DNA from: Candidatus Rokuibacteriota bacterium | Lineage (GTDB): Bacteria > Methylomirabilota > Methylomirabilia > Rokubacteriales > CSP1-6 | Length of the DNA: 56,247 nucleotides | NCBI GenBank assembly: GCA_016184305.1 | Contig: JACPCX010000122.1 | Location: 1 to 56,247 of the forward strand | Direction: 5' to 3' | In this document: positions 40,970-46,801 of the stretch, piece by piece | Layout of the letters: each line of letters starts with the position of its first letter | Numbering within the stretch: the first letter of the stretch is position 1 | The notes under the pieces: generated by a model | What the model was told of the DNA's origin: nothing | Database searches by the model: none | What the model saw: only the letters and a program-made list of their open reading frames with translations | Made by a program: the position numbers and the translations under genes

Positions 40970-42211
40970 GTGAGCTCCGCGCTCCAGATCCTGATGCGCG
41001 GCCCGTACGCGCGGGCCATGCTCACCAACTTCCTCTTCTTCCTCGCCCTCAACGGCTTCCTGCTGCTGCCGCTGTACGTGAAGCGGCTGGGCGGCAGCGA
41101 GGCGGACGTCGGTCTCGTCCAGAGCATGTTCAGCGTGGCCGGCATCCTGTGCCAGCCGCTGATCGGCCTGTGGGTGGACCGCCTGGGCCGCCGCCTCTTC
41201 ATGCTGCTCGGCGTGGGCCTGCTCGCGCTGTCGTCGGCGGCCTTCATCGTCGGCGTCTCTATCCCGGTCGCGGCGGCCTTGCGCGCGCTGCACGGGATCG
41301 CCTTCTCGCTCTTCTTCGTCGCCAACTACGTCCACATCGTGGATCTCGTCCCCGTGGAGCGGCGCGGCTGGGCGCTGGGCATCTTCGGGCTCTCGGGGCT
41401 CGTCTCCACGGCCGTGGCGCCGCTCATCGGGGAGGTCGTCATCCGCCGCCTGGGCTTCGGATGGTCCTTCGCGGTCTCGTCGCTCGTGGCCGCGGTGGCG
41501 CTGGTCCTCGTGCTGCGCAGCCGAGACGTGCGTCCGCCCGTCATGGGGGCAGGACCGGGTGTCGAGGCGTTCCGCGTGGGCCTGCAGGAGCTGCTGCGGA
41601 TCCACATGGCCCTTGGCTTCTTCTTCGGACTGGGAACCGGGACCCTGTTCACCTTCCTCCCGACCTTCGCGGAGCACATGGGCGTGACTGGGCTGGGATT
41701 GTTCTACACGGGGTACTCGGCATCGGCCATGGCGGTACGCGTCTTCGGCGGGAATCTGATCGACACGCACGGTCGTCGCGCGGTCATCGTGCCCTCGATG
41801 TTCGTCCAGACGGCCGCCGTGGCTGTCCTGGCCCTCCTGGCCTTGCTCCTCGGCCCCACCGTGGACGTCCCGGTCCTGCCGTTCCTCCTCTTCGCCGGCG
41901 TGATGGCGGGAAGCGCGCATGGCTTTCTCTATCCCGCCCTCTCTGCGCTGGTCGTGGACGTCACGCCCGAGGCCCGGCGGAGCAGCGCGGTCGGCATCTT
42001 CAGCTCCGTCTGCCTTGTCGGCAACGCCCTCGGCGCCATGACGTTCGGGTACGTGGCCCACGGCCTCGGCTACGGCGTGATGTGGACGGGCCTCGGCCTT
42101 CTCCTGGCGCTGGGGATCCTCGCGAGCCTTAGGTTGAGGCCCCTGGTGCCCGCCGGTGCGGGCACGCAGCGTCCTCAGCCGGCGCATGTCGACCGCCGCG
42201 GGCATGGCTGA
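40970..42211 (+). CDS. MFS transporter
   Basis: About 12 TM segments, motif A GLWVDRLGRR and GNLIDTHGRR. Confidence 0.9.
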   Translation: MSSALQILMRGPYARAMLTNFLFFLALNGFLLLPLYVKRLGGSEADVGLVQSMFSVAGILCQPLIGLWVDRLGRRLFMLLGVGLLALSSAAFIVGVSIPVAAALRALHGIAFSLFFVANYVHIVDLVPVERRGWALGIFGLSGLVSTAVAPLIGEVVIRRLGFGWSFAVSSLVAAVALVLVLRSRDVRPPVMGAGPGVEAFRVGLQELLRIHMALGFFFGLGTGTLFTFLPTFAEHMGVTGLGLFYTGYSASAMAVRVFGGNLIDTHGRRAVIVPSMFVQTAAVAVLALLALLLGPTVDVPVLPFLLFAGVMAGSAHGFLYPALSALVVDVTPEARRSSAVGIFSSVCLVGNALGAMTFGYVAHGLGYGVMWTGLGLLLALGILASLRLRPLVPAGAGTQRPQPAHVDRRGHG

Positions 42212-42282: not shown

Positions 42283-42819
42283 ATGGGGGAACGCAGGCGG
42301 ATCGCAACGCTCGGCCTTCTGCTCGTATGCGGCACGGCGCTCCTGGCGGCCGGCGGCAAGAGCGAGGTGCCGTCCCCCAGGGCGCTCGGTCCCCAGGAAG
42401 TGGAGGTCGTCGGGCTGTTGCTGAGCCCGAACACCCTTCAACCCACGGTGGTGCTCCAGGGCAAGCGTGACAAGCGCACCTTCGCCATGGCCATCGGCGC
42501 TGCAGAGGCCACCGGAATCGCATTCCCCCTGCAGAACCTCACGCCCCCACGCCCGCTCACCCACGACCTCTTCCTCACGCTCTTCGGGCGCCTGAACGTG
42601 TCCGTGAAGAAGGCGGTGATCACCGACCTCAAGGACGACATCTACTACGCGACCGTGTATCTGGTGGCGGCCGGCGGCGACATGCAGCTCGACTCCCGGC
42701 CGTCCGATGCCATCGCGCTCGCCATCCGCGCCAAGGCCCCCGTCTTCGTCGAGGACCGCGTGTTCGAGAAGTCCGAGCGCCTCCAGCCGCCGCCCGCCGG
42801 CGCCCCGCCGAGGATCTGA
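42283..42819 (+). CDS. Bifunctional nuclease (BFN/DUF151) domain protein with N-terminal signal peptide/TM
   Basis: IG..EA..I, PPRPLTHDL, DSRPSDAIALA motifs; N-terminus RRRIATLGLLLVCGTALLAAG. Confidence 0.88.
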   Translation: MGERRRIATLGLLLVCGTALLAAGGKSEVPSPRALGPQEVEVVGLLLSPNTLQPTVVLQGKRDKRTFAMAIGAAEATGIAFPLQNLTPPRPLTHDLFLTLFGRLNVSVKKAVITDLKDDIYYATVYLVAAGGDMQLDSRPSDAIALAIRAKAPVFVEDRVFEKSERLQPPPAGAPPRI

Positions 42820-42821
42820 CC

Positions 42822-43793
42822 GTGGCGGCCGAGGAGGTGAAGGACGCCGTCCCCGAGCCGCCGAAGAACGGCGGCCAGCAGTGGGCGATCCAGCGCCGCA
42901 TCGAGGATGTCTTCGCGAAGCTCGGGGAGAAGTTCGGTGACCTGAGCGGGCGGGTCGTGGTCACCATCAAGCCGGAGACCTCCTTCGAGCACATCGGCGG
43001 CCTCGCCCAGGCCAAGGCGGCCGTGCGCGGCTTCGCCACGGCGCTCACCGACCCGGAGCTCTACCGCAAGTGGGGCATCACCCCGCCCAAGGGCCTGCTC
43101 CTCTACGGTCCGCCCGGCACCGGCAAGTCCATGCTCGCGCGCGCGCTGGCGACGAGCGCCGGGGCGATCTTCTACCACCTCAAGCTGATGAACCTCACGT
43201 CCAAGTTCGGCCCGAACACGGGCGAGCTCTTGCAGGAGATCGTGGGGATCGCCAAGGCCGAAGGGAAGGCCGTGGTCTTCCTGGATGAGGCCACCGCGCT
43301 GTCACTGGAGCACCTGCTCCCGCCTGCCCAGGCGCGGGAGGCCAGCGCCCGCCTGGTGGCGGCGCTCTGCGAGAAGATGGATAGCCTCGATGACTTCTCG
43401 CCCGTGATCGTCGTCGCCTCGACGAACCGGACGGACTCGGTGGATCCCTCGCTCGTCGCCCCGGGACGTCTTGACCGCCTCGTGGAGGTGACCCTGCCCG
43501 ATGGTCCCGCACAGCAGGAGATCCTGCAGCTGGCGAAGACGCAGGCGGAGACCGCCGCGGGCCGCCCGCTCTTCGAGAGCCTCGACCTCCGCTCGCTCCT
43601 GCCCCCCATGGGCGGGATGAGCGGAGCAGAGATCTCGGAGGTGCTCCGGCGGGCGCTCGAGCAGAAGGTGTACGCCGCGGGCGAGGGGCGGGACGCGGGG
43701 CTCGTCACCACCCAGGACCTGCTCCACCAGATCGACGCCTACCGTCGCATCCGCGAGGTCGTCGAGAAGCTCCGCTACGGCCAGTATTTGTAG
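42822..43793 (+). CDS. Stand-alone classic-clade AAA+ ATPase with C-terminal GQYL (proteasome-activator-like)
   Basis: FEHIGGL, PPKGLLLYGPPGTGKS, FLDEA, STNR..SVDPSLVAPGRLDR, MSGAEI, ends ...YGQYL*. Confidence 0.88.
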   Translation: MAAEEVKDAVPEPPKNGGQQWAIQRRIEDVFAKLGEKFGDLSGRVVVTIKPETSFEHIGGLAQAKAAVRGFATALTDPELYRKWGITPPKGLLLYGPPGTGKSMLARALATSAGAIFYHLKLMNLTSKFGPNTGELLQEIVGIAKAEGKAVVFLDEATALSLEHLLPPAQAREASARLVAALCEKMDSLDDFSPVIVVASTNRTDSVDPSLVAPGRLDRLVEVTLPDGPAQQEILQLAKTQAETAAGRPLFESLDLRSLLPPMGGMSGAEISEVLRRALEQKVYAAGEGRDAGLVTTQDLLHQIDAYRRIREVVEKLRYGQYL

Positions 43794-43813: not shown

Positions 43814-44236
43814 ATGGCCACCACGACCCACATTCGTGTGCGCTACAAGGACACCGACACCATGTCGGTCGTCTACTACGGCAACTACCTCACCTACTTC
43901 GAGGTCGGGCGCGTCGAGTATCTCAGGCAGGCGGGGCTGCCGATGGCGCAGGTCAACCTGCGGATCCACATGCCGGTGGTGGAGGCCCTCGTCCGCTACG
44001 TCAAGCCGGCCCGCCTCGACGACCTGCTTGCCGTCATGAGCCGCGTGAGCGAGCGCCGGCGCGCGAGCTTCACGTTCTCCTACGAGATCCGCAATGAGGC
44101 CTCTGAGCTGATCGCCACCGGACATACCCACCACGCCTGCTGGGACCCGCAGACGCAGAGGATGATCGCCATCCCCGACTGGCTCAAGAAGATCATGCCC
44201 GATGCCGACCTCGACCCGGCCCCGACTCGCCCCTAG
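43814..44236 (+). CDS. Acyl-CoA thioesterase (YbgC/4HBT family)
   Basis: RVRYKDTD.M.VVYYGNYLTYFEVGR, YVKPARLDD. Confidence 0.9.
   Translation: MATTTHIRVRYKDTDTMSVVYYGNYLTYFEVGRVEYLRQAGLPMAQVNLRIHMPVVEALVRYVKPARLDDLLAVMSRVSERRRASFTFSYEIRNEASELIATGHTHHACWDPQTQRMIAIPDWLKKIMPDADLDPAPTRP

Positions 44237-44659: not shown

Positions 44660-46801
<2,142 letters not shown>

What the first reader, a model, noticed from the sequence alone, without database searches (positions are those of the whole stretch)
42822..43793. Minimal AAA+ protein ending in GQYL: candidate new type of bacterial proteasome activator
Seen: a 323-aa protein consisting of one classic-clade AAA module plus about 50 N-terminal residues, ending exactly in GQYL. 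Walker A (GPPGTGKS), Walker B (FLDE) and sensor 1 (STNR) are intact. Pore loop 1 reads SKFGPNT instead of aromatic-hydrophobic-Gly (K[YWF]VGE), and the first arginine finger is Ala (LVAPGRLD versus LLRPGRLD). Known: GQYL is the C-terminal motif by which actinobacterial Mpa/ARC and Bpa/PafE dock on and open the 20S proteasome, and Mpa/ARC use N-terminal coiled-coil and OB domains to take up pupylated substrates. Inference: this could be a Pup-independent, nucleotide-binding but weakly translocating 20S cap, encoded away from any prcAB/pup locus in this window.
Basis: partly seen in the sequence, partly recalled or inferred. Interest (0 to 1): 0.8.

Follow-up and report, generated by a model that had tools for sequence, protein, structure and literature searches.

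The report
Minimal GQYL-tailed AAA ATPase of Rokubacteria
A small, strongly conserved ATPase of an uncultured soil and groundwater bacterial phylum ends in the same four residues that known bacterial activators use to plug into the proteasome, so it is probably an undescribed extra proteasome cap, though binding has not been shown.

Summary
ORF 42822-43793 (+) encodes a 323-aa single-module classic AAA protein ending RYGQYL. It is not a truncated ARC. It belongs to a conserved family of 308-336 aa found in 159 of 201 sampled genomes of its phylum (source names: Rokubacteria/NC10/Methylomirabilota). All 235 of 235 family proteins collected end in GQYL, down to 40% identity. On a tree the family is one clade beside uncharacterised 465-561-aa single-AAA proteins, away from ARC and PAN.

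The genome has a full Pup-proteasome set (arc, two Pup-ligase paralogues, pup, prcB, prcA), and its ARC also ends GQYL. These are the only 2 of 15,246 long open frames with that ending.

The altered pore loop and missing first arginine finger are traits of one subclade. Another subclade keeps K-W-Y-G and the arginine.

A fold of the tail region with two PrcA copies gave weak support only (0.46; best control 0.02).

Best reading: a further, N-domain-less 20S-docking ATPase ring; binding is unproven. My literature searches found no description. This scan noted the same family earlier on other genomes.

The parts
42822..43793 (+). Gene for the 323-aa single-module AAA protein ending RYGQYL (stop codon included)
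   Evidence: ORF. PF00004 over res 92-224, E 6e-27. AF2 model with pLDDT 91.2.
42864..42935 (+). Conserved N-terminal helix (res 15-38). It is the only structured element ahead of the AAA core.
   Evidence: Helix 15-38 in the model. R25, L34 and G39 are at least 90% conserved and G43 is invariant in A3. All 232 members have only 76-104 residues before the Walker-A strand.
43107..43130 (+). Walker A, GPPGTGKS (res 96-103)
   Evidence: K102 is present in 232 of 232 members.
43200..43223 (+). Pore-loop-1 region, SKFGPNTG (res 127-134). The aromatic residue is kept; the hydrophobic and Gly positions are replaced by G-P.
   Evidence: Aligned opposite SKWVGESE of VAT D2. F-G-P/A in about 175 and W-Y-G/A in about 45 of 232 members. 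The model draws res 122-146 as one helix.
43272..43289 (+). Walker B, VVFLDE (res 151-156)
   Evidence: D155 in 226 and E156 in 228 of 232 members.
43419..43430 (+). Sensor 1, STNR (res 200-203)
   Evidence: T201 in 231 of 232. Position 202 is N in 144 and S in 80 of 232.
43452..43475 (+). Second region of homology, LVAPGRLD (res 211-218). The first arginine finger is Ala213; the second, Arg216, is kept.
   Evidence: Position 213 is A in 134, R in 46, E in 31 and Q in 8 of 232. R216 is present in 232 of 232.
43779..43790 (+). C-terminal GQYL (res 320-323), the proposed 20S alpha-ring docking tail
   Evidence: G320, Q321, Y322, L323 and R318 are each present in 232 of 232 members. The tail is non-helical after helix 297-318, with lower pLDDT.
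42283..42819 (+). Upstream, translationally coupled gene: a BFN-domain protein (178 aa) with a signal-peptide-like N-terminus
   Evidence: PF02577, E 7e-33. Its stop lies 2 nt before the GTG start. It is directly upstream in 20 of 22 loci at 52% identity or more and in 0 of 9 at 45-50%. The orthologues have basic-then-hydrophobic N-termini.
42810..42814 (+). GAGGA Shine-Dalgarno-like site, 7 nt before the GTG start
   Evidence: Read from the sequence.
43814..44236 (+). Downstream 4HBT-type thioesterase gene. It is part of the conserved MFS-BFN-AAA-thioesterase gene order, and no functional tie is shown.
   Evidence: PF13279/PF03061. Synteny.
40970..42211 (+). Upstream MFS transporter gene, part of the same conserved gene order
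   Evidence: PF07690, E 3e-58. Synteny.

Best explanation
The gene encodes a ring-forming classic-clade AAA ATPase that has no substrate-receiving N-domain. It docks on the alpha-ring of the organism's own 20S proteasome through its invariant C-terminal GQYL, using the same pockets as ARC. It would then be a further, Pup-independent cap encoded outside the Pup-proteasome locus.

The shown facts:
- One AAA module with intact nucleotide-binding residues.
- An invariant, exposed tail identical to that of the genome's ARC.
- A complete 20S/Pup system in the same genome.

The inferred steps:
- Hexamer formation.
- Nucleotide-dependent insertion of the tails between PrcA subunits, with the terminal carboxylate meeting the invariant pocket lysine.
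- Gate opening.

In the subclade of this window the pore loop reads F-G-P, the first arginine finger is lost, and sensor-1 is often Ser. There I expect it to act mainly as a nucleotide-controlled gate opener or occupant for unstructured proteins and peptides, not as a strong unfoldase. The subclade that keeps K-W-Y-G and the arginine finger may still translocate.
For: (1) The tail. GQYL closes 120 of 120 close homologues and 111 of 111 relatives of the deepest member, 235 of 235 in all. E315, K316, R318 and Y319 before it are nearly invariant, while overall identity falls to 40%.

(2) Only 2 of 15,246 long frames in the genome end in GQYL. The other is the 663-aa ARC with OB domains.

(3) The genome holds arc, dop/pafA, prcB and prcA on C46, a second Pup-ligase paralogue on C231 and pup on C18. 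PrcA K53 is invariant in 21 of 21 sequences.

(4) From papers, as passages seen: Mpa/ARC and Bpa both dock through C-terminal GQYL (GxYx) into pockets between alpha subunits, with a salt bridge to a conserved lysine. The alternative regulators Bpa and Cpa are encoded outside the PPS locus (PMC6466877, PMC6017811, PMC12288473).

(5) The catalytic core is kept: K102 in 232, D155 in 226, E156 in 228, T201 in 231 and R216 in 232 of 232.

(6) The model (pLDDT 91.2) superposes on the PAN AAA domain (3whk/3h4m, TM 0.88-0.90 normalised by target). It ends in a long helix (297-318) followed by a non-helical five-residue tail.

(7) Predicted complex of two PrcA copies with residues 226-323: verdict 'weak support'. 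Score 0.46 (runs 0.46, 0.49, 0.42); best of 3 controls 0.02. The mark was reached by 116 of 157 solved complexes and 2 of 215 mismatched pairs. At 0.60 or under it was reached by only 18 of those 157 and by both mismatches that passed. The runs agree in at least 42% of contacts, and partner pLDDT is at least 72.

(8) In G123 a second ARC paralogue lies tail-to-tail, 111 bp from the short AAA.

(9) G001 (100% complete) had a match for neither the short AAA nor PrcA, and its PrcB hit was weak, like the hits in the other PrcA-negative genomes.
Against: - No binding, ring or gate-opening data exist.
- The complex pass is weak. Because GQYL-20S complexes (Mpa, Bpa) are solved, it may reflect memory of the motif and not this protein.
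- Co-occurrence does not discriminate. PrcA is found in 157 of 201 sampled genomes. 31 genomes have PrcA without the short AAA, including most of family f6 (short AAA in 2 of 18), and 33 have the short AAA without a PrcA hit.
- In five of those 33 (93-100% complete) only one HslV-like proteasome-family hit was found. In G013 I found no Pup-ligase or ARC piece either, so one real carrier without a 20S is not excluded.
- The gene is linked to proteasome genes in only 1 of 31 loci examined.
- The tail after the last helix is only about 5 residues long, and I did not test whether it can reach the pockets.
- The conserved operon partner, a BFN protein, looks exported and gives no proteasome link.
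Confidence: 0.5

Rival explanations
1. It docks on the 20S through GQYL but is not an activator. It could be a nucleotide-sensing plug or competitor that keeps ARC off the alpha-ring. It could be a storage or inhibitory cap. Or it could be an alpha-ring assembly chaperone, in the way the eukaryotic HbYX proteins Pba1-Pba2 and PI31 are not activators (that comparison is recalled, not from a call).
For: The docking evidence is the same as for the best explanation. In addition, the window's subclade has lost the first arginine finger (0 of about 175 F-G-P/A members have Arg213), has an F-G-P pore loop, and has Ser at sensor-1 in about half. That pattern fits a protein selected for binding more than for work. 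No N-domain for substrates is present.
Against: Walker A, Walker B and Arg216 remain under strict selection. The family includes members with a canonical K-W-Y-G pore loop plus Arg213, which speaks for real motor activity at least ancestrally.
Confidence: 0.2
2. It is a fully competent unfoldase cap, a true alternative to ARC. It would recognise substrates through its conserved N-terminal helix or through an unidentified adaptor, and thread them into the 20S.
For: The N-terminal helix is conserved: R25, L34 and G39 at 90% or more, G43 invariant. The aromatic residue is kept at the pore-loop position (F129 in 174, W in 55 of 232). The canonical subclade has W-Y-G/A, Arg213 and Asn202. The nearest relatives have canonical SKWYGESE loops.
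Against: In the window's clade the hydrophobic and Gly positions of pore loop 1 are G-P. The model folds the region into a helix, not a protruding loop. The first arginine finger is missing. No adaptor gene is conserved beside it across the family.
Confidence: 0.12
3. The GQYL end has nothing to do with the proteasome. It would bind another partner, or pack within the protein's own ring, and the identity with the ARC tail would be convergence.
For: There is no experimental link. The gene is unlinked to the proteasome locus in 30 of 31 loci. 31 PrcA-positive genomes had no match to it. G013 shows the family with no proteasome-system piece detected. Q321 is invariant here, whereas passages of PMC6017811 and PMC12288473 say the Q of GQYL is dispensable for 20S binding. 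Two ARCs of this phylum end GHYL. So the constraint on Q could come from something else.
Against: A four-residue ending shared only with ARC among 15,246 frames and invariant over 232 sequences is hard to ascribe to chance, given a phylum in which the 20S is near-universal. The predicted complex scored 0.46 against controls of 0.02 or less, which is a weak pass.
Confidence: 0.15
4. It is a remnant of an ordinary ARC gene that lost its N-terminal coiled-coil and OB domains by deletion or mis-assembly.
For: It shares the GQYL ending with ARC. ARC (pup_AAA, TIGR03689) appears among the NCBIfam hits, at 100.9 bits.
Against: All 232 aligned members have the short N-terminus of 76-104 residues before the Walker-A strand. 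The family is one clade (SH-aLRT 100) joined to non-ARC single-AAA proteins (100) and apart from ARC. The family HMM scores ARC lowest of the groups compared: 98-105 bits, against 180-214 for PAN-like proteins. There is no beta-grasp domain before the tail. The intact ARC is present elsewhere in the genome.
Confidence: 0.01

Closest known systems
Mpa/ARC, the proteasomal AAA ATPase of the Pup-proteasome system (NCBIfam TIGR03689)
   Same: It has a classic-clade AAA module and a C-terminal GQYL. ARC is present in the same genome as the 20S it serves, and that ARC ends NTGQYL.
   Different: It has no coiled coil and no OB domains: PF17758 and PF16450 are absent but present in the genome's ARC. 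There is no beta-grasp domain before the tail. It scores 100.9 bits against a cut-off of 504.75. It sits in a separate clade. It is encoded outside the arc-dop-prcBA locus.
[quoted passage not shown]
   Same: It has a GQYL tail, is encoded away from the Pup-proteasome locus, and has no Pup-binding domain (paper passages).
   Different: Bpa is not an ATPase and forms a dodecameric ring (PMC6466877). There is no sequence relation: PF10759 is not among this protein's Pfam hits. No Bpa was detected in G000, but the control genomes did not ring, so that search is inconclusive.
Cdc48-type ATPases that meet the 20S: archaeal Cdc48/VAT and actinobacterial Cpa
   Same: These are the best profile matches among solved structures: the D2 module of VAT (184 bits for the domain), Cdc48/p97, and 5e7p (204 bits in one stretch). 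According to passages of PMC6466877 and PMC6017811, archaeal Cdc48 binds the 20S directly, and Cpa stacks on the bacterial 20S in vitro.
   Different: This protein has one AAA module, not two, and no N-domain. Cpa lacks the penultimate tyrosine, and its last five residues are dispensable for binding, whereas here the tail is the most conserved part. That 5e7p is the M. smegmatis Cpa homologue is recalled, not from a call.
PAN, the archaeal proteasome-activating nucleotidase (NF003069/TIGR01242)
   Same: It is the best NCBIfam match (168.6 bits) and the best Foldseek match (PAN AAA domain 3whk/3h4m, E 4e-21). Both have a C-terminal tail with a penultimate Tyr.
   Different: The score is far below the cut-off of 500. 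There is no coiled-coil/OB N-domain. The tail is GQYL, not Hb-Y-X. It sits in a separate clade.
Unnamed 465-561-aa single-AAA proteins (P0154, P0165, P0171, P0179, P0182, P0193 and others)
   Same: They are the nearest relatives on the tree (joint clade SH-aLRT 100) at 40-44% identity. The lid domain is homologous, including the last helix up to an [ILM]-G-F position that aligns with I-R-Y.
   Different: They carry about 250 extra N-terminal residues with no Pfam family and a canonical SKWYGESE pore loop. They have variable C-terminal tails without GQYL.

Membership tests
Classic-clade AAA ATPases (Pfam PF00004) | AAA module with Walker A, Walker B, sensor 1 and the second region of homology | tested here: met
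   PF00004 scores 95.1 bits against a cut-off of 21.2. The motifs are located. Foldseek's top hits are PAN, FtsH and p97.
Mpa/ARC (TIGR03689) | Score over the curated cut-off of the equivalog model | tested here: not met
   100.9 bits against a cut-off of 504.75.
Mpa/ARC (TIGR03689) | N-terminal coiled coil and tandem OB domains (PF17758, PF16450) | tested here: not met
   There is no such Pfam hit. Only about 90 residues precede the Walker-A strand. The genome's real ARC has both domains.
Mpa/ARC (TIGR03689) | Beta-grasp domain between the AAA lid and the tail (feature taken from passages of PMC12288473) | tested here: not met
   The model goes from helix 297-318 straight into the five-residue tail.
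Mpa/ARC (TIGR03689) | C-terminal GQYL / GxYx docking motif | tested here: met
   It ends RYGQYL. The motif is invariant in 232 of 232 members.
Mpa/ARC (TIGR03689) | Placement within the ARC clade | tested here: not met
   The short family is a separate clade with non-ARC relatives (quick IQ-TREE, SH-aLRT only, with only 2 ARC rows on a long branch).
PAN (NF003069 / TIGR01242) | Score over the curated cut-off, and a coiled-coil/OB N-domain | tested here: not met
   168.6 and 160.7 bits against cut-offs of 500. There is no N-domain.
Cdc48/VAT/Cpa (TIGR01243) | Two tandem AAA modules behind a Cdc48-type N-domain | tested here: not met
   It has a single module. 150.8 bits against a cut-off of 802.65.
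Bpa/PafE (PF10759) | Match to the BPA family | tested here: not met
   PF10759 is not among the Pfam hits at E up to 0.01.
20S-docking regulators (functional class) | C-terminal motif with a penultimate tyrosine at the very end of the chain | tested here: met
20S-docking regulators (functional class) | 20S genes present in the same genome | tested here: met
   prcB and prcA are on G000 contig C46. Across the phylum, 126 of 159 carriers also gave a PrcA hit. In at least 4 of the 5 exceptions checked, pieces of the arc or Pup-ligase genes were present; in two (G014, G071) a piece is seen cut by a contig end.
20S-docking regulators (functional class) | Ring (hexamer) formation | not testable with these tools
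20S-docking regulators (functional class) | Physical binding to the alpha-ring and gate opening | tested here: inconclusive
   The predicted complex gave 'weak support': 0.46 against a best control of 0.02. The mark was reached by 116 of 157 solved and 2 of 215 mismatched pairs. At 0.60 or under it was reached by only 18 of the 157 and by both passing mismatches. The pass may be memory of solved GQYL complexes.

The most novel reading that the evidence does not exclude
An AAA lineage unrelated to ARC shed its N-domain and captured the GQYL tail. That created a fourth class of bacterial proteasome regulator, after Mpa/ARC, Bpa and Cpa, and the first one specific to a non-actinobacterial phylum. 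In most Rokubacteria this ring has then given up threading (F-G-P pore loop, no first arginine finger) and works as a nucleotide-sensing gate switch. It would couple 20S access to the cell's ATP/ADP state and compete with ARC for the alpha-ring.
Probability: 0.3. Interest if true: 0.8.

Novelty: new variant of a known kind. Interest (0 to 1): 0.62.

Why it matters
According to the reviews I read in passages (PMC6466877, PMC12288473), bacterial proteasome biology rests on three regulators, all from Actinobacteria: Mpa/ARC, Bpa and Cpa. A fourth would show that the bacterial 20S is a more modular platform than thought. It would be independently evolved, reduced to one AAA module plus the docking tail, and conserved through most of a widespread soil and groundwater phylum.

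It would also offer a minimal system of about 320 aa for asking how an AAA ring opens a proteasome gate. The family holds a natural pair of variants, one with a canonical and one with a degenerate pore loop and arginine finger. That pair could separate gate opening from translocation.

If the tail turns out not to bind the 20S, the invariant GQYL would point to an unknown partner that reads the same motif.

Tried and rejected
(1) Truncated-ARC idea: rejected. See the last rival.

(2) Co-occurrence with the 20S as a decisive test: not informative, because both genes are near-universal in the phylum sample. The cross-table gives both 126, short AAA only 33, PrcA only 31, neither 11, of 201 genomes.

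(3) Carriers without a 20S. Five 'short AAA only' genomes of 93-100% completeness have just one HslV-like PF00227 hit each and only weak PrcB hits. But G071 and G014 hold Pup-ligase pieces, and G114, G017 and G014 hold ARC OB domains. In G014, ARC is cut by a contig start and the ligase by a contig end. G013 gave nothing, so it remains an open possible exception.

(4) The search for related loci on the named genome collection with the family alignment. The family's range outside the phylum therefore stays untested. Source names on members are Rokubacteria, NC10 and Methylomirabilota, plus single MAGs labelled Binatia and Deltaproteobacteria.

(5) Protein atlas. The two nearest clusters are commonest in Methylomirabilota, and the rest are generic AAA.

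(6) The operon partner as a clue. The BFN protein looks exported, and the gene order is kept only among closer relatives.

(7) Bpa search in G000: no hit, but no control genome rang either, so it is inconclusive.

(8) RNA evidence. Three metatranscriptome runs hold small shares (0.06-0.10). Near-identical contig pieces lie inside the gene: X19, 42979-43179, 1 difference; X18, 43116-43266, 3 differences. Most other pieces are Walker-A look-alikes from other genes, and an RNA library can hold DNA. This is a weak hint of transcription only. Parts of the gene without cover prove nothing.

(9) Family fragments. Among the 50%-identity representatives, 11 rows with 53-75% identity are pieces whose match stops before about residue 270, or which end differently: P0125, P0128, P0137, P0143, P0146, P0152, P0156, P0159, P0190, P0202, P0261. 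I took them for truncated or frame-shifted calls without checking their DNA.
Full report
**Observation.**
The ORF at 42822-43793 (+) is real. It has a GTG start 7 nt after a GAGGA site and 2 nt after the stop of the upstream gene. It encodes 323 aa ending ...EKLRYGQYL. Pfam finds one AAA module (PF00004, residues 92-224, E 6e-27) and nothing N-terminal to it.

- Walker A, GPPGTGKS
- Walker B, VVFLDE
- sensor-1, STNR
- SKFGPNTG
- LVAPGRLD

The profile alignment to the D2 module of VAT sets K128-F129-G130-P131 against K-W-V-G. It sets A213 and R216 against the two arginines of R-A-G-R. So the pore loop and the first arginine finger are altered as claimed.

In the 3.2-Mb assembly (88.8% complete, 239 contigs), only 2 of 15,246 stop-to-stop frames of at least 100 codons end in GQYL. 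One is this ORF and the other is the full-length ARC.

**The genome has a complete Pup-proteasome system.**
Contig C46 carries four genes in a row:
- a 663-aa ARC with both OB domains, ending NTGQYL
- a Pup-ligase family gene
- prcB, whose start overlaps that gene's stop
- prcA, which abuts the contig end

A second Pup-ligase paralogue sits at the start of contig C231, and a pup gene (PF05639, 75.6 bits) is on C18. A third proteasome-family hit on C215 scores like the single HslV-like hits seen in other genomes. No Bpa (PF10759) was found, but no control genome rang, so that says little.

**It is a family, not a broken gene.**
The word-indexed search gave 1719 hits at E up to 1e-20. The best 120 are 256-336 aa long and 76-99% identical. 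The names their sources give are Rokubacteria, Methylomirabilota and one Binatia MAG. All 120 end in GQYL.

The exhaustive search of 50%-identity representatives added full-length members at 41-66% identity (P0122, P0134, P0138, P0183; 308-314 aa), all ending [YT]GQYL. It also returned 11 shorter or odd pieces that stop before the C-terminus. I took these for fragments without checking their DNA.

A search from the deepest member (P0183, labelled a Deltaproteobacteria MAG) returned 111 further members, with source names NC10 and Rokubacteria. All 111 end in GQYL. The total is 235 of 235.

In an alignment of 232 members of at least 295 aa (identity to the window protein 40-99%), the following holds:
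- G320, Q321, Y322, L323 and R318 are present in 232 of 232.
- E315 and K316 are present in 230, and Y319 in 229.
- Every member has only 76-104 residues before the Walker-A strand.

In a sample of 201 genomes of the phylum, 159 have a match at E up to 1e-40. All listed matches but one run to the last residue; the exception is cut by a contig end. This tally, and the PrcA tally below, include five genomes flagged unpublished (G029, G047, G058, G100, G151).

**Origin.**
The family HMM scores the two ARCs lowest of the groups compared:
- ARC: 98-105 bits
- proteins I labelled PAN-like by size: 180-214 bits
- Cdc48-like modules: 142-202 bits
- FtsH-like proteins: 150-170 bits

I built a tree of 74 AAA modules (IQ-TREE quick search, LG+G4, SH-aLRT only). 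The group labels other than ARC were set by me from length and domain count, not by Pfam, and one of eleven PAN-like rows was lost to a name clash. On this tree the short family is one clade (100). It joins a set of 465-561-aa single-AAA proteins (joint clade 100). PAN-like proteins form their own clade. The two ARCs sit on a long branch among Cdc48 D2 modules, a placement I would not trust.

The nearest relatives have the following features:
- about 250 N-terminal residues with no Pfam family
- a canonical SKWYGESE pore loop
- no names, and no NCBIfam match over a cut-off
- a C-terminus homologous to the short family's up to an [ILM]-G-F position that aligns with I-R-Y, after which they run on with variable tails, whereas the short family stops at GQYL

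So the family looks like an offshoot of a non-ARC lineage that lost an N-domain and gained the docking tail. The order of these events is inferred, not shown.

**Two states within the family.**
Pore loop, arginine finger and sensor-1 vary together:

| Members (of 232) | Pore loop | Position 213 | Position 202 (sensor 1) |
|---|---|---|---|
| About 45 | W-Y-G/A | Arg | Asn |
| About 175 | F-G-P/A | Ala, Glu or Gln; never Arg | Ser in about half |

The window protein is of the second kind: F-G-P, Ala213, Asn202. Walker A Lys, Walker B Asp-Glu and Arg216 stay nearly invariant in both states.

That loss of the first arginine finger lowers ATPase activity is established for other classic AAA proteins by my recall only; no call or paper here tested it.

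**Structure and docking.**
AlphaFold2 on a 48-row alignment gave pLDDT 91.2 and pTM 0.86. The model shows:
- residues 1-14 disordered
- a helix at 15-38
- the AAA core, in which residues 122-146 form one helix, so there is no protruding pore-1 loop
- a lid whose last helix (297-318) runs into a non-helical five-residue tail of lower confidence

Foldseek's best solved matches are the AAA domain of PAN (3whk, 3h4m; E about 4e-21; TM 0.88-0.90 by target length), then FtsH and p97. By inference, the tail leaves the module where PAN's docking tail does.

PrcA is highly conserved across the phylum (21 sequences, 58-92% identical), with Lys53 invariant. That this is the pocket lysine is my reading of the review passage on a conserved lysine, not a test.

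I folded two PrcA copies with residues 226-323, and the result was 'weak support':
- Score 0.46 (runs 0.46, 0.49, 0.42); best of three controls 0.02.
- The mark was reached by 116 of 157 solved complexes and 2 of 215 mismatched pairs.
- At 0.60 or under it was reached by only 18 of the 157 and by both passing mismatches.
- The runs agree in at least 42% of contacts, and partner pLDDT is at least 72.

Because GQYL-20S complexes of Mpa and Bpa are solved, this pass may only reflect the motif.

**Co-occurrence and linkage.**
PrcA was found in 157 of 201 genomes. The cross-table is: both 126, short AAA only 33, PrcA only 31, neither 11.

Family f6 mostly has PrcA (16 of 18) but not the short AAA (2 of 18). 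So the gene is accessory to the 20S.

I checked five 'short AAA only' genomes of 93-100% completeness:
- Each has only an HslV-like proteasome-family hit and only weak PrcB hits.
- Four of them hold ARC OB domains or Pup-ligase pieces.
- G071's Pup-ligase piece starts at base 1 of its contig.
- In G014 the ARC is cut by a contig start and the ligase by a contig end.
- G013 gave no such piece and remains a possible true exception.

Many PrcA matches lie within a few hundred bases of contig ends, as in G000 itself. This explains many of the false absences.

G001 (100% complete) had a match for neither gene.

The short AAA is unlinked to the proteasome locus in the contiguous genomes. It lies 113 kb from prcA in G136, 345 kb in G107, and on another contig in G181 and G123. 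In G123, however, a second ARC paralogue ending GHYL lies tail-to-tail, 111 bp from it. According to passages of PMC6466877, Bpa and Cpa are likewise encoded outside the locus.

**Neighbours.**
In 20 of 22 loci at 52% identity or more, the gene follows a BFN-domain gene within an MFS-BFN-AAA-thioesterase order. In 0 of 9 loci at 45-50% identity is this so. There the neighbours are GntR regulators, GNAT, DUF72, lytic transglycosylases, a cold-shock protein and, in G014, a ThiF-family gene and another AAA gene.

The BFN proteins all begin with a basic then hydrophobic stretch, and some have an L-L-G-C lipobox-like site. They are probably exported and unlikely to be direct partners.

**Expression.**
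Seventeen DNA runs from groundwater, soil and sediment hold half or more of the locus's sampled words. Three metatranscriptome runs hold small shares. After laying the runs, two near-identical RNA-library contig pieces lie inside the gene: X19 at 42979-43179 with 1 difference, and X18 at 43116-43266 with 3 differences. This is a weak hint only.

**Literature.**
- The search 'GQYL' + 'proteasome' found 20 papers, with 18 listed. By title and abstract, none of those listed describes a short AAA protein with this tail; those on the bacterial proteasome concern Mpa, Bpa/PafE or Cpa.
- 'Rokubacteria' + 'proteasome' found 6 papers, none on the subject.
- 'UBact' + 'proteasome' + 'Mpa' found 0.
- A fourth search on bacterial proteasomes outside Actinobacteria added nothing.
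- I read passages, not whole texts, of PMC12288473, PMC6466877 and PMC6017811. They name three regulators (Mpa/ARC, Bpa/PafE, Cpa) and say that Mpa and Bpa dock by GQYL, that the Q is dispensable, and that Cpa lacks the penultimate tyrosine.
- Subscription-only papers are outside the library.

Earlier notes of this scan (e1-7410618, e1-6391258, e1-7418355) describe the same family on other genomes with the same reading. They are unchecked AI notes. I re-derived each point here and do not count them as evidence.

**Verdict.**
The protein is best read as a member of an undescribed, phylum-wide family of minimal AAA rings that dock on the 20S through GQYL. In this subclade it is probably more a nucleotide-controlled gate opener or occupant than an unfoldase.

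Docking is inferred from the invariant tail, its uniqueness in the genome and the presence of the 20S. It is not demonstrated.

Noticed in passing
window 42283-42819 (+); orthologues in L013-L024, L104-L119: The BFN (PF02577, 'bifunctional nuclease') domain protein is translationally coupled to the AAA gene. In all 20 orthologues seen it carries a signal-peptide-like N-terminus, and several have a lipobox-like L-L-G-C. An exported BFN-domain protein is not what I would expect for this family.
   Followed up: partly
L105:2187-3887 (+) = G123:C1; also G123:C3:717917: G123 has two ARC paralogues. One lies beside prcA. The second lies tail-to-tail with the short AAA and ends GHYL instead of GQYL. 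The ARC of G014 (L144:1-1656) also ends GHYL.
   Followed up: partly
G000:C46:96-791 and many PrcA matches: In MAGs of this phylum the proteasome locus very often abuts a contig end, with PrcA matches starting within a few hundred bases of contig starts. This creates false 'no 20S' calls and hints at something hard to assemble next to prcA.
   Followed up: partly
G000:C46:1594 region (L012 1580-1600, minus strand); G000:C18:36058-36246: The stop of the Pup-ligase family gene overlaps the prcB start, so no pup gene lies between them. The only Pup-family hit is on another contig (C18). This gene order differs from the dop-pup-prcB-prcA order I recall for Actinobacteria.
   Followed up: partly
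P0154, P0165, P0171, P0179, P0182, P0193, P0211, P0243, P0256: This is an unnamed family of 465-561-aa single-AAA proteins. They have a canonical pore loop, about 250 N-terminal residues with no Pfam family, and a conserved [ILM]-G-F near a variable C-terminal tail. They are the sister group of the GQYL family.
   Followed up: partly
L111:5178-5966 (-) and L111:6534-8252 (-) = G014:C226: In G014 a ThiF-family (E1-like) gene and a second, very divergent 572-aa AAA gene lie just downstream of the short AAA gene.
   Followed up: no
window 44660-46801 (-): A 713-aa dCache-HAMP-GAF-GGDEF protein, a sensor diguanylate cyclase, lies convergent to the thioesterase gene.
   Followed up: no
G000:C200:6550-7845 (L007): A two-module Cdc48-like AAA gene is cut by a contig end. 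The genome may therefore also hold a Cpa-like protein. Its C-terminus was not examined.
   Followed up: no
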